Shown here one piece after another: positions 29,221 to 38,640 of a stretch of DNA of 64,000 bases. The stretch is from Schizochytrium sp. TIO01 (lineage: Eukaryota; Protista; Bigyra: Labyrinthulomycetes): assembly GCA_004764695.1 (NCBI GenBank), contig SMSO01000006.1, positions 1,255,859 through 1,319,858 on the forward strand, read 5' to 3'. Each line of letters begins with the position of its first letter. Within the stretch, counting starts at the first letter, position 1. Under the pieces are notes generated by a model. That model had not been told where the DNA came from. It saw only the letters and a list, made by a program, of their open reading frames with translations, and did no database searches. A program made the translations under genes and the position numbers.

Positions 29221-31098
29221 ATGGCGGACGAAGGCGCCGTGGGCGCCACCTCGTCACGAGACTCTCTTCTGCGTCGCTCCATGCGGGCTTTTATGGGTCC
29301 CGTTGCTGCTCTCTCGCGTGCTCACAATGCAGAGGCCCACGATGGCCTCGACGACGTTCAAAACGAAGACGCCAACCAAGGTCTTACTTCAAGTGAAAGT
29401 GCTAGCACTGACCATGGGGAATTGGAGAACGATACTGGTGTAGAGAATCATCTGCAAGCTGTCTTTAAAGACGCAACGAAAGACTCCATGAGCGCTGAAA
29501 ACGCGGCACCATCGAGCTCACCTCACACACGTAGCAGTGGCAAAACCGGACCTTTAGTGGCTCCGAGGAGATCACTTGTGCCTAAAACTCTCTCACGAAG
29601 GGTGTCGGGAGTTAGAATTGTTGGGCGGACGTTTCGTAAACGGGTTGCTGTCGTCGAGCACCCCAACTCACCTTGGATTGCTGAGGTTTGGGGTATATCT
29701 GAGGATGATGATGTTGAGGATCCGATGCCCTCAGAGCGGGTTCGCCTTCAGCGTATCGAGGTTTACCTCGAAGAAGCAAAGTCAGAGGATCCCGAGGCTC
29801 GAATAGTTGGTTTGAGATGCATCAGGCACCTTTTTATGGCATCAGGGAGAGTTCCAATATGGTTGTTGCTGGAGTCAGATTTGCATAGCTCACTAATTGA
29901 AAACCTCAAATCTGGCGCTGATGAAAAACTACTTTTTGAGACCATGTGGGTTGTCGCACAGCTGGCTAAGACTCGCTCTCGAGCAAATATGATGGCACTT
30001 CTGAACAAAGATGCAATTGGAGAAACTGCGCGTATTCTTGATATGTTTGTGAGTCCACGAGTATCCGAGCAAAGCTTACGAGCTCTCAGTCGACTAGCGC
30101 GGACTAGTCTGGACGTCCGTGACCAGATCCTCGCCAATGAGAAAGTTATTCCTGTTTTGACCAGAATTTCTGTCGCGACAGGTCCTACATCAATGTACTG
30201 TGCTCTAGCTTCCGCCATTTGCAGTCTTGTCCAAGGTTCACCTGCGCCTAGCACAGATGCAGTTGTAGACCCACTTATGCCAACTCTTGCTCGTCTCTTT
30301 GAGATACAAGATATCCATGCTATCAATAGCGTTCTGTTCTCCCTGGCTTATCTTTCTGAGAGCAACCCTTCAAGTCTTACTACGATGGTAGAGCTGGGTA
30401 TGACTCCAAAAGTGGCCGCAGCTTTAGATGGCACATTGGCACAAACCTTGAAAGACTTTGAGATGTCTGGATCGCCCGATCATGATGAAAACGAGGACCG
30501 TGAGGATACTGAACTTATGCTCTTAACTCCAGCGTTACGTACTGTTGTCGGTGTTGCATCTACTGGAGAGGACTTCATTCAAGCCATTTTAGATACTGAT
30601 GCGGCTGGCAGCATTGTGCAACTCATTGAACATCCTCGCCGAGACATTCGGGTTCTTGCTTCTAAAGCATTGGCAAACATGTCACTCGGCTCACAGGCTC
30701 AAATTCAAATATTGCTTGATTACGACCTTGCTAAATTGCTGCAAAACCATTTCGAACGGGAAGTGCACGTTACAGTAAAGAAAGGTATCGCTACGTTTCT
30801 TGCAAATGTTTGCACGCGAGGTTCTTCCGAACAAATATCTGAGGTGACTTCCCATGGAGCAGTTCGTATCATGTGGCATGTTGCTAGCCTCATTAATGTA
30901 GGGCGAACTACAGACTTGGTAGTTTCTGCCACTGAGGCAGTACTTGCAAAGATTGACCCTGCAAACATTCGCCAGGTCTTGATTGATATTGAAGAATCGG
31001 GTACATTCGAAGTCCTTGATCGTCAAGATATCAGCGAAGATTATTTTGAGCGCCTGACCGAGGCGATGTTTATGGCAGAGTCTAGAATTGTGGACTAA
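29221..31098 (+). CDS. Importin-alpha-like armadillo-repeat protein (divergent)
   Basis: ARM repeats align to importin alpha (FETMWVVAQLA, EQSLRALSRLA, FSLAYLSE, TPALRTV, ALANMSLGSQAQIQILLD, FLANVCTRGSSEQI). ORF is open from 29128; ATG 29221 has CACCACC context. Confidence 0.8.
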   Translation: MADEGAVGATSSRDSLLRRSMRAFMGPVAALSRAHNAEAHDGLDDVQNEDANQGLTSSESASTDHGELENDTGVENHLQAVFKDATKDSMSAENAAPSSSPHTRSSGKTGPLVAPRRSLVPKTLSRRVSGVRIVGRTFRKRVAVVEHPNSPWIAEVWGISEDDDVEDPMPSERVRLQRIEVYLEEAKSEDPEARIVGLRCIRHLFMASGRVPIWLLLESDLHSSLIENLKSGADEKLLFETMWVVAQLAKTRSRANMMALLNKDAIGETARILDMFVSPRVSEQSLRALSRLARTSLDVRDQILANEKVIPVLTRISVATGPTSMYCALASAICSLVQGSPAPSTDAVVDPLMPTLARLFEIQDIHAINSVLFSLAYLSESNPSSLTTMVELGMTPKVAAALDGTLAQTLKDFEMSGSPDHDENEDREDTELMLLTPALRTVVGVASTGEDFIQAILDTDAAGSIVQLIEHPRRDIRVLASKALANMSLGSQAQIQILLDYDLAKLLQNHFEREVHVTVKKGIATFLANVCTRGSSEQISEVTSHGAVRIMWHVASLINVGRTTDLVVSATEAVLAKIDPANIRQVLIDIEESGTFEVLDRQDISEDYFERLTEAMFMAESRIVD

Positions 31099-31149
31099 AT
31101 GCCTCTAAATGTCTGTGTCTACCTTCACCTCTTTGTTTGAATAGCTAAT

Positions 31150-31580
31150 TATGTGGAAGAACATTGAGCGCACTCTTATCTCTGTCGCTGGCATTTGTTG
31201 AATACGATAAATTCCAAGACTCCAAGTGGATGGCTGCATTGATAAACATCAATCCTGTTTATTCTCTACGCGTGTAGCTATATCATTTTATCCGTGTAGG
31301 AGGGGTACATTACCCACTGATAAACCGAATATCTCGTGAATTTGAAATAGTTCCTTTGAAGCTTTAATCGGATTCTTTGAAGAGGGAGGTGAGAGCGCAT
31401 GCTTTGCGCCTGCATGTGACGACGAAATTCTTCCCTTTCGGTCAGAATCCTTATGGCGGTGAGATGCGCAACACTGCGCAGTGTTTCCGTGCATGCTCGT
31501 ACTACAATCGCCACTTTCCAGAAATGTGTGCGTACCTGGGCGGTGAGTTCCCGCCGCGTCCCGCCGCTTTAAAGGATTGA
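31150..31580 (+). pseudogene. Possible decayed coding relic, unknown family
   Basis: Protein-like fragments broken by stops and frameshifts (EYDKFQDSKWMAALININP...REVRAHALRLHVTTKFFPFGQNPYGGEMRNTAQCFRACSYYNRHFPEMCAYLGGEFPPRP). Confidence 0.25.
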
Positions 31581-31656
31581 TTCCAACTAAAACTTAAATG
31601 TTAAATGTTAAATGTCAAATGTTAAACTTTGCTTGTCTTTTTGGGACTTCTTATTA

Positions 31657-33545
31657 TTATTCAACAAACGCAAAGAGTTTGTCAAAAGCAGCATTATCAT
31701 CTGCAATCATCTTGTCACCTGCTCCAACCGTTGCCATGCCGAAGTCAATCACCCTCACCGCTTCAATGTGGTCAACGACAAAGTTGTTCAACCGAATGTC
31801 ATTGTGCGCAACGCCATACTCGTGCACAGCTGACAGTGCTGCACGCGCCTTGTGCTTGATCTCACTAGTGATCGACGCTTTCGGTAACTGAGAAAGTGCA
31901 TCACCGTGGTACGAGACTGCAATCAGTAAATCGTTGAACATGTGCCTTCCACCGAACAAGTAGAACGGGATGTAAATGCCCATCAGCGGTCGCAGTTCCT
32001 CATACACAGCCATTTCATTCTCGAAGCTTGCAATCGCATCCATCTGATACTGTCTAGAGTCGTTCTTGGGAGTCATAACTTTGGCAACATAATTAACACC
32101 GAATGCCACTGTATGCGCCGAGATTGAGTACTGACCCATCGGGTACTGCTTAACGACACCTTCAAGTCCGCCTCGATACGGAAACTGTGCAACAGTGTAC
32201 GGCAGTGGGTCTTGGAGAGCTTTCAGCTTCTTGATCATTGATTCATCGCCGTCGCTCGAGGAAGTGGTAGTATTCATATTCTGAGTAGCACCCTTGTTAC
32301 CTCTACCCGTGATGCGCTTTGCTGCTTTGACCACTGAGGAAAGAAAACTACTACTACCACCATCACTTTTGCTGCAAAGCATGTCGTACGAGCCTTGCCA
32401 TTGCGTCATATCCTTGATCGCCGTATCACCGACAAACGGAACGGAAGCGAAGATCCTTTCTCGCTCCACATCATTCAAATCAAGTTTTGCATTTTTCAAC
32501 GCGTTCACAATAAAAGCAGCGTATGTAAGCTTGACAGATTTTTCTTCTGTATGCCAGTGCCATAAAATACCTGCGAAACAAGTAATATGTTGTCTGGGTC
32601 CAGTCTCAGAAACCACGTGCGATCCGTCGTACTCAAGACACCGCAGCGGACGCACATACGGAGCATGTACACATAAACCTGTACAATGGGCCACCTGAAG
32701 TCTCTAATTCGGGCGTCCGAGTACTTCTTGACTTTCTCGAAGTGATACCAGTAGTCCTCTAGATCATCATGCACGTTATGAAGAACTTGTTGTTGGAGAA
32801 CTTCTTGAATTTCAACGTGTTGTTCAGATGCGACTTCTTCAGCTTCTTTGAGAACGTCAGCTCGTTTGACGGAGTTGGGAAATTTAGCACAGGCTTTGTG
32901 TTCGTGCACAATTATAGCGTGTCGCAATTCGGGGCCCGTTGCTGGCATACCACAGTGCACGTCTACGCTGTCGGTGGGGACATTAGGATTAGCTGCTCTA
33001 GCGATCGTCCAATCGGTTCGATAACCAGGATGCACGTCTTCGCCGAAAAATTCCAGACCATAACGAGCGAATTCCTCGTTTGTATGAACAACATCATCTA
33101 AGAATGGACCAGTCAACATCCGGTCCATTATAGATACACAAAATTTTTCATTCGGCGTATTAGCATGTCTTTCTGTATTGAAAGGACGGAACAAAACGTT
33201 AAGGACTTGTCCATTCAGGAGCCCCTCTTGACCATCCATGATTTCTTCGATCCTCATTTCTTCGTTGAAGGTACACCACTTTTTCACCGCAGAGGGTACT
33301 AGGTTAAACTTTGACTGAGCGCTAGCTGCCGGTGGGTTGGCATCTGGGAGGCGTCGAGTCAAACTACTTACAGCCCCAGACTCACCGTAATCATGAGTCG
33401 TACCTTCACGAGCCTGTGCTGAGGCCTCTATAGACTCTATCTCTGTGAGTGCGGTTGGTTTCCAAAGTGTTATCAGCATATTAGTGACAAGTGGAAACTG
33501 ACACAACGCCTTGTGTGCCGGTACGAACTCTACGTTGTACGACAT
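31657..33545 (-). CDS. PD-(D/E)xK (REase-fold) nuclease plus minimal protein kinase fusion, Crinkler/Spok-like architecture; split by one frameshift near 32540
   Basis: ORF 32505-33545 has RTD...IIVHEHK...IVQVYVYM...CGVLSTTDRTWFLRL. ORF 31657-32694 has YVAKV, FENEMAVYEELRPLMGIYIP, VAHNDIRLNNFVV, VIDFGMA. One extra base, for example in the T5 run at 32539-32543, fuses them into 629 aa. Confidence 0.8.
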
Positions 33546-33973
33546 TGCTCCTAACCCGACTCATCTCAACACACTTCGATTCGACTCGACTCAACTCAAC
33601 TCTGCTCGCGATTCCCCAATTGAGGCTTTGCTTGCTCTTCTTTCTGCTTCGTGTTCACGTCACGTTGCGCGACGCTTTTGCCTGTGTGTTGCGCTACGCT
33701 TTTTGTCCGTGTGCATTCCGCTTTTATCTGTATCACCCGTTGCTCAACTCAACACAACCCGACTCAACTCAACTCATTCTGCTCGCGATGGCCCATTTGA
33801 GGGTTTGCTTGCTCTCTACTTCGTGCGCACGTGACGTTGCGCCACGCTTTTGTCTATGTTTTGTGCTACGCTTTTGTTGTCTCCATTCCCCTTAATCTGT
33901 ATCACCCGTTGCTCAACTCAACTCAACACAACCCGACTCAACTCAACTCAACACAACTCAACTCTGCTCGCGA
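33546..33973. repeat. ~180-bp tandem repeat (about 2.3 copies) containing (ACTCA)n arrays, abutting the nuclease-kinase start codon
   Basis: TCTGCTCGCGA recurs at 33601, 33778 and 33963. ATCTGTATCACCCGTTGCTCAACTC and ACGTTGCGC-ACGCTTTTG recur in both full units. Confidence 0.92.
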
Positions 33974-34417
33974 CGGGTATCATTAAACAAGCGCTTGTAG
34001 ATTGTGTTTCCTCTCAGCACGTACTGGTTCTTAAAAACATATCATTCCCCATATAGTGTATGTTGTATTGAATTACTATTCCTTTTAATCTATAGTGATA
34101 TTAATTGTGCTTCATTCCTGTAGCACCTGAAACGAAAACCTCTCACGATGATTGATCATTGCCACGCGAACCATCCTCGCTCGTGGCAGCAGGCTAATGT
34201 TCTAGGTGATTATGAGAATGACGCCGAGAGTCACAGCACCGCTACCGTCACGATTGAAGACAATTTGACATCCATGAGTGTCACCAGCACTGATGAACAA
34301 TAGGAAAGGGAGAGCTTGAATCAAATTATGTGGGCTAGGAAACGCCGACATTTACAATATGTACCACCACATGGTCTACTCTCAATGCATTGTATAGAGA
34401 ATGAAACTAAACAATCA

Positions 34418-35344
34418 ATGGCGGTAGACTTGGAGAAAAAAGACATTTACGTTCTTATCGATGGAGAACTTCGCGTCACCATCCATGCCGATAACATTCA
34501 AGCTACTCGTGTATCTCTTGATGGACCGGCTACGCGACTAAATAAAATTAAGCTTGATATTGCATGTGAAGCGATCGAGAAGATGAAGACGAATGTTGAC
34601 CATGGTTTGGTTAAATATCTTACCGAGGAAATTAATAGACAGGAAGAAAACGTCGACAAGCTGCAAGAAAAACAGCACATCCTCTTTAAGCATGCCATTG
34701 GAATTGAGAAAAGGCTACAACTGGAACGTGATGCACGCGAATTTGAAAAGGTATGCATCAATGCTATGTACCAAGGAGCCATAGATGTTAGCGAAGCATT
34801 TACTCTGAGGGCTCGTTACGAAGCAGTCAAAGATGGTGACGGAAATTATCCCAACAGCAAAGTTCCAAAGTTTTACTCTAACAATAAAAAGAATTTAGCT
34901 AAAGAAGAACCCAACAGACAAACCATTAAAAACGCGAAATTTATCGTTCTCAACGTTTTGGAGCCAGAGAATGTTAAGCAAGATCAGCGCATTAAAGTGT
35001 CTGAACAATTAAGCACGAACAGTATCGCAACAGATTTTGGAGGCAGCGATGAACTCATAGAAGCAATGAGATACATAGATGGACTCAAGAAGGAACGTGG
35101 CAATGAAGTGTATGGAGACGCACATTGGAATTTTATGAATATTTTGAATGGAAAGCTTGAGATTGATAAATACCGTCAAACATTCAAAAAACTTATTGAA
35201 AAAGAAACCAAGGAAGTCTATACATCGCTTGAATATAGAAAGGAGAAACTAGAAACGTTTGAGCGCATGATGGATATTTTGTCAAAGTTACGCAAATACC
35301 TCATGTTTAAAGAGCCAAAACCTCAGCAAAATAAAGAAAACTAG
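34418..35344 (+). CDS. Hypothetical A-rich alpha-helical/coiled-coil protein, divergent from the nuclease-kinase gene
   Basis: 342-codon ORF (34316-35344), K/E-rich, no recognised family. Plausible ATG at 34418. An in-frame 51-codon ORF (ATG 34148) ends at a single TAG at 34301. Confidence 0.65.
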   Translation: MAVDLEKKDIYVLIDGELRVTIHADNIQATRVSLDGPATRLNKIKLDIACEAIEKMKTNVDHGLVKYLTEEINRQEENVDKLQEKQHILFKHAIGIEKRLQLERDAREFEKVCINAMYQGAIDVSEAFTLRARYEAVKDGDGNYPNSKVPKFYSNNKKNLAKEEPNRQTIKNAKFIVLNVLEPENVKQDQRIKVSEQLSTNSIATDFGGSDELIEAMRYIDGLKKERGNEVYGDAHWNFMNILNGKLEIDKYRQTFKKLIEKETKEVYTSLEYRKEKLETFERMMDILSKLRKYLMFKEPKPQQNKEN

Positions 35345-35431
35345 AGCATTTATAAAACGATTTTTTTTGTTTAAGGTAGGTAAAAGTATAGATAGTCCAT
35401 TTGACTACGTGTGCAAGCTTGATGCAATTCA

Positions 35432-36400
35432 TTAGTTTGCATGTGAAACTTGAACAAGCACTCGGACAATAAATGGCCTTGAAGACCCCGTGTGCATTTC
35501 AACGGCATTCACAAACCTCCAGAGGTTTTCGAGGTATCGAGGGTTTCGCAACGGCCAATGATACATTTTGAAGAGCGCCAATGCGAGAGCCTGTGAGGCG
35601 GATGCAACACTGGCTTGCGTAAGAGCATTAACGATGCCTGTTACAGAGCGTACTAGTTGCGTAACGAAGGGGTCGAGTTGGTCTCTTGCATCTTTGCGGC
35701 GCTGCACGCCAACAGAAGGTCATTTATGCACTGTCTCTTAGGACACAAGAATTCGTCTCAAAAAGTCAGTGCCTGTAGATTCTTTGATATTGTATTTCTT
35801 TTCCATCCCTGTTCGTCACACAATAATCAACAGTAAATTTATAACACAAAATTGAATACCAGACGAGAGTTAGCACGCATCATAGTTCTAAGTTGCATTC
35901 TGCACCATGAAGCAATCGGACACAACATCCTTTTCTACGATCATGGCTTCAAATAGCGAGCCAAAGCAATACAAAGGAGTCATGTCCATATAAACTGTAC
36001 AAATATCCTTGCCTGAATGTCTAAACTATAAAATTATCAAGCTAGCGATCGTAAGCATTTTCCAACCAAGTATATTCAACGTTTACACTCATAGTTGCTT
36101 CCAGAGCATGCTGAACTATTCTGTGCCGTAATGTTCAATACAACAAGTGAATTGGTCAAGTATATGATGTATGAGCAGCTTCCAAATAGGAGTCAAATTA
36201 TATTCAATAGGATACTGATTTTCTCTGTGATTCTTTGCAATTTGTCTGAGGTAATCCGTAGATTTGACAGACACCTGTTGGAGAGTTCACCATTCCATGA
36301 AGATACTGGATGGTTTTGTCAGTTATTTGGTCGATTCCAACACATTACCTTTCAAGAAAACATTTTAGTAGCTTAATTGATTGCGTTGGCTGGGCACTCA
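35432..36400 (-). pseudogene. Possible decayed coding relic, unknown family
   Basis: Protein-like minus-strand fragments (STDYLRQIAKNHRENQYPIEYNLTPIWKLLIHHILDQF ~36150-36270; RDQLDPFVTQLVRSV...NPRYLENLWRFVNAVE 35432-35707) separated by stops. Confidence 0.3.
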
Positions 36401-37567
36401 ATCAGTTGTGAACAACACCTGAAAAGTTTCGAACAGTAACAAAAAAACGAGCTCTGCTACCTCTATGATGAAACGAGTGCCGTCAGGTGCACTACTACCT
36501 ACAGATAGGAGAGCTGCACTGATAGGGGATGAAAAGCAAACATGTTTCAGTGAAACTAGAGCTGCTGCTACAGGCTATATGCGATATTTGCAGTACATAT
36601 TTCGATTAAAAGTCTCCTCTCGTGTACCTGCTATATGTTGACACAGAGGTTACACTATTCTTTCTCTCTCAGCGTATGAGCGTTGATAAAGGGACAAGAA
36701 AAGAAAAGCCTCCTCAGCCCCTTCCAAATTAAAGCTAGCTCGAGGGATTCTTCTTGCCAGTTGCTGGGCTTGATTCAATATGTTTTGGGAGGATCTTTTA
36801 AATCGGTGACCTTCGACTTCAAGTTGAAAAAAATTAAAGAGATAAAGACCTTCTGCACCTTATTGTTTTAGCATCGAGGAATGCCTTTGTTAAAATCATA
36901 ACTCCGAACGTTATAAAATGCTATCCTGCATTTCATAAAACTCTGAGCCCGTGCAACCATTCGGGCACGTCTAAAACCTTACATGATTTCTTCAAGTTGC
37001 TGGCCTCTCCCTATTATTCACTGCTCAGGCTTCATAGTTGTTCCACCCATGGTAAACTGCATACATCTTAACGATGTTGTTGCTACTTTCACAGGCATTC
37101 ATACTTAGGCTTATTCCAATTGGAATTTATTAAAGACGTAGGTACCACATGCTACTATGAGTGATTGTTGTAACTTGAGTTTTTACCAATCATGTCAAAG
37201 AATTGCGATGAGGAGCCTCTGACTAGTGAGAGTGCTTCGCCTCTCATGGTGGCATTGTTCCGGGAATGAGCTAAGGGCCTTTAGCAGGTCGTACTAGTAG
37301 CACAAAAAGAAAAGAAAAAGAAAAATGTAATAGAAATAGTGAACGAATGACTGACTGAATGAATGAAAGTGACATTAAATTCACGGCTCGCTCGGAATCA
37401 CTGCCGCCGAGATGAACTTCTCATTCTGAGCTGCGCAAACCTGGGTTTGAGTAAATCCCAAACTAGTGGCTTCACATAGACCTCATAGCTTTGGCAGGCA
37501 GAGCAGCTACGTTTGCGAGTGTAGAAGCAACAGACGTAGTTCTTACTTTCGTGAGGTAAAGGACAGA

Positions 37568-38640
37568 ATGGGTGGCGGTGCAGAGGAAAATGGCGGCGAT
37601 GTGGTCGTAGGCGTGCTCGCGCTTCAGGGTGCTTTCAAGCAGCATGTGCAGCTATTTGAAAAGCTTGGCATCAAGGCCATGGAGATCCGTGTGCCGGAAG
37701 AGCTTGCGCAAGTCAACGCTCTTGTACTCCCTGGAGGTGAGAGTACCGCCATCGCGCTCGTGGCTCGCCGCACCGGAATGGTAAGTGCACTGAGAAATAA
37801 TACAACGCGTACTACAAGGTAAAATGTCCTACGCAACGCACTGCAACATAGCCTAGTGCATCGAAGATGGAATGGGATCTAAATGTGATTGAAAAATCTG
37901 TGAAGAACTCAGGAAAACGTATAAGACTATTGAGGATGGACAACGTGGATGACTGACATGCTTGCAACTGGTTATGTGAATGAACAGATGGAGCCCCTTC
38001 GCGAGTGGGTGGCCAGTGGCAAGCCGATTTGGGGTACATGCGCTGGCATGATCCTTCTTGCCGATAAGATCACTGGCAAGATGAAGGTACGAGAACCTGT
38101 GAGCTGAAGACCCGACTCCAATTTGTATCGCCTTGTTGATCAATATATGAAATCAACGAGGAGCGGGTGCTGTCTCTGAGAACCAGGGCCCATAGACTAA
38201 CTTATTCGCACACTTTCATGTGTGGATTCCCTTTTTTTACATGCCTGCAATATTAAACTCGACAGGAAGGCCAAGAACTTATTGGTGGCTTCCATGGCGT
38301 TGTGAGCCGTAACTTCTTTGGTTCTCAGCTCGGCAGTTTCTCTGCGGATCTAGAGAGCCCTTTGAATGACCTCGACTCCTCGGAGAAGAAGCACTACCGG
38401 GCTGTCTTTATTCGTGCCCCGGTTCTTCTTGAGTATGGTGATGATGTGAAGGTTCTGGCCACTGTTATCCCGCACAAGGATTCTCAGGAAGCTGATGCTA
38501 AGGTTGATGCTCATGAGCCTGTGGTCGTGGCCGCTGAGCAGAAAAGCATCCTTATTACATCTTTTCATCCCGAGCTGACTGAAGATGCTACCTGGCACCA
38601 ATACTTTTACCACTTTGCTAGCAAGGTCCTCAAGGCCTAA
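37568..38640 (+). CDS. PDX2: Pyridoxal 5'-phosphate synthase glutaminase subunit (PDX2/SNO), 228 aa; exons 37568-37780, 37988-38086, 38266-38640
   Basis: Motifs [30 protein letters not shown] (catalytic Cys), RNFFGSQ, AVFIRAP, SFHPELT. Two phase-0 GT-AG introns (GTAAGT...CAG; GTACGA...CAG) join the frames cleanly. Confidence 0.95.

What the first reader, a model, noticed from the sequence alone, without database searches (positions are those of the whole stretch)
31657..33545. Nuclease-kinase fusion of Crinkler/Spok type in an accessory island: candidate selfish toxin or effector system
Seen: an REase-fold motif set (RTD, EHK, QVYVYM, GVLST..TWFL) followed by a kinase with intact VAK, alphaC Glu, HNDIRLNN and DFG but a very short C-lobe; there is no signal peptide. 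Known: REase plus kinase pairs occur in Crinkler-class effectors and in Podospora Spok meiotic drivers, where the nuclease kills and the kinase confers resistance. Inferred: an intracellular toxin/self-immunity or antiviral module in a marine protist, inserted between housekeeping genes and flanked by gene relics. The single frameshift separates nuclease from kinase and is repaired by +1 in an A5 run, so it may be an error, an inactivating mutation or a slippage switch.
Basis: partly seen in the sequence, partly recalled or inferred. Interest (0 to 1): 0.78.

Follow-up and report, generated by a model that had tools for sequence, protein, structure and literature searches.

The report
Spok-like nuclease-kinase gene family, marine protist
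A marine protist carries a multi-copy gene that joins a predicted DNA-cutting domain to a kinase, the layout of fungal spore-killer genes, so it likely acts as a selfish poison-plus-antidote; the break in this copy is absent from several other sequenced samples.

Summary
The minus-strand gene at 31657-33545 encodes a nuclease half and a short Rio/ELK-like kinase. The predicted nuclease fold best matches restriction nucleases: BpuSI (Z 8.8) and Vibrio HsdR (Z 7.9), the protein also reported as SPOK3's best HHpred hit. Catalytic motifs are conserved among homologues.

One point is corrected. The frameshift lies near 32553, upstream of the A5 run, so slippage there is unsupported. Contigs from three other studies, probably four, carry this copy in one frame, and intact 627-628 aa relatives exist. 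It is probably an assembly error, otherwise a rare null allele.

The gene is likely transcribed and belongs to a multi-copy thraustochytrid clade with many decayed members (11 Hondaea records on 11 contigs). It lacks the Crinkler header and the Spok cysteine cluster, so it is filed as neither. It is a header-less member of the known REase+kinase (CR) class.

Best reading: an intracellular, selfish toxin-antidote gene working like Spok (about 45%). Toxicity, drive and presence/absence between strains are untested; the 'accessory island' is not shown.

The parts
32559..33545 (-). 5' half of the gene: about 78 poorly structured residues, then a predicted PD-(D/E)xK (HsdR-like) nuclease domain (about 33317-32559) with D (RTD), E-x-K (EHK) and QxxxY
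32550..32558 (-). Frameshift in the window's copy. It falls just before the last conserved helix of the nuclease domain and is not seen in the matching contigs of three other studies
31657..32549 (-). 3' half: last nuclease helix, variable linker, then a short ELK/Rio-like kinase domain (about 32205-31660) with VAK, alphaC Glu, HNDIRLNN and DFG
33545..33970 (.). Upstream block of about three 170-178 nt units containing CTCAA pentamer runs. Unit number varies between runs, and the pentamer part occurs at many other loci
   Evidence: joint 33626-33804, loose ends at 33911-33969; joints 33626-33804 and 33742-33917
31217..31570 (.). Downstream block shared (about 85-90% alike) with one other locus, with similarity ending sharply at 31217; possible end of a mobile or duplicated unit (inferred)
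   Evidence: loose ends at 31217 with the same letters in X3, X14 and X13; no Rfam hit

Best explanation
This is an intronless, multi-copy thraustochytrid gene for a header-less nuclease-kinase fusion that likely works inside its own cell as a one-protein poison and antidote, as fungal Spok does. Shown: the two domains in this order, conserved catalytic motifs, several diverged copies and an intact form in other samples. Predicted: the PD-(D/E)xK fold. Inferred by analogy: the nuclease damages chromosomal DNA unless the kinase activity keeps it off. Nuclei or daughter cells that inherit the protein but not the gene would then die, which would favour keeping and spreading the gene. A shared cytoplasm, such as a multinucleate sporangium cleaving into zoospores (recalled thraustochytrid biology), would be the natural arena. 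The window's frameshift is probably an assembly error (about 60%), otherwise a rare null allele (about 35%); programmed slippage is unlikely (about 5%).
For: FOLD: nuclease half matches BpuSI (Z 8.8, rmsd 3.1, 121 aligned) and V. vulnificus HsdR 3h1t (Z 7.9, rmsd 2.8, 106 aligned); most of the top 15 rows are PD-(D/E)xK nucleases. The HsdR protein and a QxxxY motif are what PMC6660238 section 17 reports for SPOK3. ATLAS: clusters carrying PF27653 SPOK2_N at 0.92 for the nuclease half (rank 14; 76% of members) and at 0.95-0.96 for P0001 (98% and 44%). CONSERVATION: both active sites. 50 of 154 proteins held show both domains in this order. MULTI-COPY: DNA runs X9 and X11 lay 148 and 143 contigs, many under 95% alike, with a diverged copy inside 7.7-kb and 4.5-kb contigs from another locus. 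Eleven Hondaea records lie on 11 contigs of different length, most partial or with degraded motifs. P0001, P0003 and P0004 are block mosaics, 65-100% identical by 40-residue window. 26 of 35 listed variant sites are non-synonymous, in line with dN/dS 0.66-0.98 among Spoks (PMC6660238 Table 2). NO DELIVERY HEADER: Pfam Crinkler is absent from P0001 but present on 4 of 43 scanned proteins. PRECEDENT: Spok kinase-dead alleles kill through DNA damage (PMC9972908), and Spok also removes vegetative cells that lose it (bioRxiv 10.64898/2026.10.04.756499).
Against: No functional data exist for this clade. The best structural Z values (8.8, 7.9) are only at or just above the level the tool calls common, and Foldseek gave nothing at E<=0.001 for the nuclease. 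The Spok cysteine cluster, needed for resistance in Spok3, is absent in 3 of 3 proteins tested. No named Spok protein came back from any sequence search (names looked up for 20 hits only). The top Atlas neighbours are unnamed or plain 'kinase' fungal clusters, so the REase+kinase class is much wider than Spok. The copy sits at the same locus in the runs that bridge its junctions, and no empty site or transposase was found. A near-neutral share of non-synonymous sites also fits simple decay, and the site list is truncated. The mosaics may be transcript-assembly chimeras. One X14 contig (depth 11.5) covers 32553 without the indel being listed, so the broken form may exist elsewhere.
Confidence: 0.45

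Rival explanations
1. Defence nuclease: the kinase keeps the nuclease off until foreign DNA or a virus signal appears, then it cuts the invader's DNA or kills the infected cell.
For: Restriction-enzyme-like fold, no export header, fast divergence of the nuclease half versus 95-97% identity in the kinase core. PMC5289972 section 11 reports the proposal that some CR proteins target intracellular invasive DNA.
Against: No sensor domain was found and there is no infection data. The tested homologues (Spok, CRN8) are killers or effectors, not defences.
Confidence: 0.2
2. A decaying, mostly functionless family left by an old toxin or mobile element, still transcribed from retained promoters.
For: Many Hondaea members are truncated, fused or have lost catalytic residues. 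26 of 35 listed variant sites change the amino acid. The window's copy is frameshifted.
Against: Intact full-length frames with both active sites persist at 33-38% identity across the clade (P0001, P0155, P0156), and this copy is in frame in other studies.
Confidence: 0.15
3. An exported effector or toxin used against prey, hosts or competitors, like CRN8-type Crinklers.
For: Same REase+kinase C-terminus as Crinkler-header proteins among the hits (P0049, P0062, P0063, P0072; nuclease-profile scores 16-33 bits against a shuffled maximum of 3.1). CR headers are varied and need no signal peptide.
Against: No Crinkler header or LFLAK motif. Residues 1-78 are predicted at pLDDT under 50. The thraustochytrid clade (support 99) is separate from the header-bearing rows.
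Confidence: 0.1
4. A domesticated, non-toxic regulator (DNA repair or signalling) in which the nuclease fold binds DNA and the kinase signals.
For: Likely transcribed in several studies and fixed at this locus in the runs that bridge it.
Against: Multi-copy turnover with many broken members and low cross-genus identity is unlike a housekeeping gene.
Confidence: 0.1

Closest known systems
Spok spore-killer proteins of Podospora and Fusarium (PMC6660238, PMC9972908, PMC12693581)
   Same: HsdR-like PD-(D/E)xK nuclease with QxxxY, then a linker and an ELK-like kinase in one intracellular protein; several diverged, mosaic copies; feature similarity to SPOK2_N clusters.
   Different: No cysteine/histidine cluster before the kinase; short, low-confidence N-terminus instead of a coiled coil plus folded domain 1; stramenopile host; no Starship or other carrier seen; killing and resistance untested; no direct sequence hit to a named Spok.
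CR (Crinkler-RHS) REase+kinase proteins, e.g. Phytophthora CRN8 (Zhang et al. 2016, seen only through PMC5289972 and PMC12693581)
   Same: The REase+kinase C-terminal architecture, reported as about one sixth of CR C-termini and present in free-living eukaryotes; detectable sequence similarity to Crinkler-header proteins in both domains.
   Different: No ubiquitin-like Crinkler header or LFLAK motif; forms a separate thraustochytrid clade.
Hondaea fermentalgiana hypothetical kinase-domain proteins (FCC1311_066552 and ten further records)
   Same: Same clade; 33% identity over 95% of P0001 for the best record; same HEHK, QxYxYM and GVLSTTD motifs.
   Different: Annotated only as hypothetical or kinase, with the nuclease unrecognised; most records are partial, fused or degraded.
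AACRNL, a Crinkler-like selfish element of free-living eukaryotes (PMC12957317, abstract only)
   Same: A toxin-derived CR protein with a degenerate delivery domain acting as a genomic parasite.
   Different: It carries an ADP-ribosyltransferase, not a nuclease-kinase pair, and spreads with flanking hAT transposons.

Membership tests
Spok | PD-(D/E)xK nuclease domain related to type I HsdR | tested here: met
   Predicted model; top VIA matches BpuSI Z 8.8 and V. vulnificus HsdR Z 7.9; D, E and K conserved. Z values are moderate.
Spok | QxxxY motif after the catalytic core | tested here: met
   QVYVY; Q in 85 of 90 and Y in 83 of 90 rows.
Spok | C-terminal ELK-like kinase with catalytic Asp | tested here: met
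   HNDIRLNN and DFG; matches to RNase L, Rio2 and Rio1 kinases at Z 15.6-16.6.
Spok | C-x3-C-x13-C-x5-H-x7-H cluster before the kinase | tested here: not met
   No match in P0001, P0155 or P0156; one Cys in residues 340-480 of each.
Spok | N-terminal coiled coil plus domain 1 (SPOK2_N, PF27653) | tested here: inconclusive
   Atlas lists SPOK2_N clusters at 0.92-0.96 but gives no alignment. The local Pfam copy gave no such hit and may predate the model. Residues 1-78 are low confidence.
Spok | Nuclease-dependent killing, kinase-dependent resistance, biased inheritance | not testable with these tools
   Needs expression assays and crosses.
Spok | Frequent carriage on a large transposon or accessory region | tested here: inconclusive
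   No genome held; no empty site in 8 laid runs, which were chosen for holding the gene; a shared downstream block with a sharp edge at 31217.
Crinkler (CRN) effector | Ubiquitin-like header with LxLFLAK (PF20147) | tested here: not met
   No PF20147 hit on the window's half or P0001, while 4 of 43 scanned proteins have it; no LFLAK motif.
Crinkler (CRN) effector | Translocation into a host cell nucleus | not testable with these tools
   No assay possible; only a crude hydropathy check.
CR-type REase+kinase class (broad) | REase domain followed by a kinase domain in one chain, homologous to those of CR proteins | tested here: met
   50 of 154 proteins carry both domains in order; the nuclease profile scores 16-33 bits on the four Crinkler-header proteins against a shuffled maximum of 3.1.

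The most novel reading that the evidence does not exclude
Thraustochytrids carry their own family of single-gene, Spok-like killer-antidote drivers, the first outside fungi by the searches run here. They would act among nuclei of the multinucleate sporangium or after cell fusion, diversify by block exchange into mutually non-protecting copies, and achieve kinase-based self-resistance without the Spok cysteine cluster.
Probability: 0.3. Interest if true: 0.72.

Novelty: new member of a known kind. Interest (0 to 1): 0.42.

Why it matters
How the Spok kinase protects against the Spok nuclease is stated to be unknown (PMC12693581). A compact member with no cysteine cluster and no header, from a culturable non-fungal protist, would be a good comparative test of that mechanism. 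If it kills non-carrier siblings, single-gene drive or addiction would extend to stramenopiles and could affect strain stability and cryptic sex in thraustochytrids. If it does not, it is one more unannotated branch of a class already known to be widespread.

Tried and rejected
No whole genome is held, so copy number, synteny and element ends could not be read directly. No RNA holder is on record in the run list. X1, X3 and X14 have no cover at 34072-35339, where DNA run X9 has cover; noted only, not used as evidence. No related loci in viral contigs, metagenome contigs (43, 86) or prokaryote genomes (88); the right-hand 346-aa ORF also found none in viral contigs (70). Foldseek of the full model returned only kinases; the nuclease model had no match at E<=0.001. 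Sequence searches of the PDB returned only kinases in the rows shown. Rfam found nothing in 30900-37600. No terminal inverted repeat pairing the two ends was found. Complex prediction of nuclease with kinase gave no verdict (score 0.01, alignments not used). The IQ-TREE run did not finish; the FastTree result has long-branch warnings, no Spok rows and no true root. A slippage switch at the A5 run was rejected. An intron at the break was rejected: no joint is listed there, and the frames match intact relatives without a gap. The taxon number on record P0002 resolves to a fungus; that it is a mistyped Aurantiochytrium limacinum number (87102) is my recall, not a result. Zhang et al. 2016 could not be read; its supplements may already list thraustochytrid members. 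Earlier-findings look-ups by sequence, words and nearby place found nothing on this family.

Full report
WHAT IS THERE. The minus strand holds two overlapping frames, 32505-33560 and 31657-32703, starting at ATG 33545. Pfam sees only a weak kinase in the 3' half and nothing in the 5' half. A search with the 5' half among longer proteins returned one hit, P0001, an intact natural 628-aa protein, 77% identical over the whole query. Its cluster has four members. So the fusion is real, and P0001 was used for all full-length work.

THE BREAK. Against the intact relative P0004 the frame changes between 32558 and 32550, and the A5 run at 32539-32543 is already in the kinase frame. In one search, 3 of 4 runs (X1, X3, X9; three studies) show a small indel at 32553 in all of their depth there. 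The fourth, X14, has one contig of depth 11.5 over the place without that row; 14 indel rows were hidden, so its state is open. In one search, X13 record 10 (32496-32900) has the same tally of differences as X1 and X3, which fits the same allele; X11, X17 and X20 cannot be read at this place. Apart from two substitutions at 32587 and 32616, X1 matches the window across 31631-33618. Three differences within 64 of 1,988 bases would cluster so by chance about 0.3% of the time. Another window-only insertion at 35464 (X9, X14) and a cluster at 29390-29485 (X1, X9, X14) suggest patchy assembly errors or a private haplotype. I put error at about 60%, real null allele at 35% and programmed slippage at 5%. 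If real, the product would lack the kinase and the last conserved nuclease helix (337-351 in the model).

EXPRESSION. No run is on record as RNA (20 of 24 listed hold the stretch, 8 studies). However, X1, X3 and X14 contigs skip two GT..AG introns of the neighbouring SNO/PDX2 gene (37779-37987, 38084-38264), which DNA run X9 does not (table 5), so they contain spliced RNA. X1 and X3 cover the gene unspliced from about 31631 to 33618 or beyond. Transcription is likely; its level and strand cannot be read from contigs.

FOLD. The full model of P0001 has pLDDT 72.8 and pTM 0.71, with residues 1-78 under 50. Its kinase matches RNase L (Z 16.6), Rio2 (15.9) and Rio1 (15.6). The window's own nuclease part, folded alone (pLDDT 81.4), best matches BpuSI (Z 8.8, rmsd 3.1, 121 aligned), V. 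vulnificus HsdR 3h1t (7.9, 2.8, 106), a Spirosoma REase-fold protein (7.8), two mitoribosome chains (7.2), DrdV, EcoR124I HsdR and Cas4. These Z values are moderate and Foldseek found nothing at E<=0.001. But the list is dominated by one superfamily, and D178, E215 and K217 sit on the expected two strands. PMC6660238 section 17 names the V. vulnificus HsdR as SPOK3's best HHpred hit and the same QxxxY motif.

FAMILY. phmmer with P0001 over 1.84 billion representatives gave 572 hits at E<=0.001, 49 at 1e-10 and 7 at 1e-30 (best 150 listed). Of 154 proteins held, 50 score over 15 bits for both domains in the right order. Catalytic positions are conserved in 85-100% of rows with a residue; the first Asp aligned in only 8 rows there and in 7 of 7 rows of the close alignment. 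Names were looked up for 20 proteins: 9 are Hondaea fermentalgiana, and adds two more. These 11 records lie on contigs of 11 different lengths, and most are partial, fused or degraded. On a FastTree of 82 two-domain rows, 11 rows (three close relatives, five Hondaea, two transcriptome records, one unnamed) form a group with support 99, apart from the four Crinkler-header rows. Cluster duplicates were left out; the root is a midpoint and long-branch warnings apply. The host is therefore likely a thraustochytrid; Aurantiochytrium rests on my recall of the MMETSP label on P0002. Atlas neighbours are eukaryotic, mostly fungal clusters, including SPOK2_N, Crinkler and DUF5898 sets (no alignments).

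COPIES AND CONTEXT. DNA runs X9 and X11 lay 148 and 143 contigs, 50 and 64 of them under 95% alike, and a diverged copy lies inside 7,661- and 4,482-base contigs from another locus. Depth is no copy number, so I say only 'several'. P0001, P0003 and P0004 alternate identical and 65-79% blocks, which fits gene conversion or assembly chimeras. The window's kinase core is 95-97% identical to them and the nuclease half 57-90%. Of 35 variant sites shown in the coding region (a truncated list), 26 change the amino acid. Upstream is a variable tandem block with CTCAA runs. Downstream, 31217-31570 is shared with one other locus and ends sharply. X11 and X13 bridge the left junction and X11 the right one, so the copy is in place in those samples; no empty site was seen, but the runs were chosen for holding the gene. 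GC is 47%, as in the left neighbour. An accessory island is therefore not shown.

MECHANISM. In Spok, the nuclease Lys is needed for killing and the kinase Asp for resistance (PMC6660238 passages). Kinase-dead Spok1 kills E. coli and yeast with DNA damage (PMC9972908 passages). Spok also removes vegetative cells that lose its chromosome (bioRxiv 10.64898/2026.10.04.756499 abstract and Discussion). For CR proteins the REase is thought to be the toxin and the kinase its regulator (PMC5289972 section 11). With both active sites intact, no header and multi-copy turnover, the best reading is an intracellular selfish toxin-antidote gene (0.45). Rivals: defence against foreign DNA (0.2), decaying relic family (0.15), exported effector (0.1), domesticated regulator (0.1). 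Every functional step is inferred.

MEMBERSHIP AND NOVELTY. It is not a Crinkler (no header) and is not filed as a Spok (no cysteine cluster; domain 1 inconclusive), but it plausibly works like Spok. The nuclease-kinase architecture is described as widely distributed (PMC12693581 passages). Searches for a thraustochytrid or protist report found none: Aurantiochytrium + Crinkler, 0 papers; Spok + homologs + stramenopile, 26 papers, the 10 listed unrelated by title; Spok + spore killer + kinase + protist, 1 review, listing only. Zhang et al. 2016 and its supplements could not be read and may include such members. PMC12957317 was seen as abstract only. Verdict: a new, unannotated member of a known kind; interest 0.42.

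Noticed in passing
window 31217-31570: Block shared with one other locus. The contig from that locus has very high depth in X14 (548) and X13 (about 375-430) and ends near 31500-31570, so it may be the end of an abundant transcript. No Rfam hit.
   Followed up: partly
window 33545-33970: Tandem units of 170-178 nt with CACGTG/TGACGT-like motifs and CTCAA pentamer runs. Unit number differs between runs, and the pentamer part is very high-copy genome-wide.
   Followed up: partly
window 31931 and 35565: One X9 DNA contig joins sequence like 31931 to sequence like 35565, so another locus may place a kinase-end fragment beside the short 35432-35719 frame.
   Followed up: no
window 34304-35344: 346-aa plus-strand ORF, coiled-coil-like, 40% GC region, no hit above cut-off in Pfam, none in PHROGs or viral contigs.
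   Followed up: partly
window 35464 and 29390-29485: Differences private to the window against all runs that cover them, suggesting local assembly errors or a private haplotype.
   Followed up: partly
P0005, P0017, P0022: Family members predicted as fused to unrelated domains (a second kinase, an esterase, Dam methylase-like and TM2 domains). These may be insertions next to or into other genes, or gene-model fusions.
   Followed up: no
window 37451-38640: SNO/PDX2 glutamine amidotransferase gene with two GT-AG introns confirmed by spliced contigs.
   Followed up: yes
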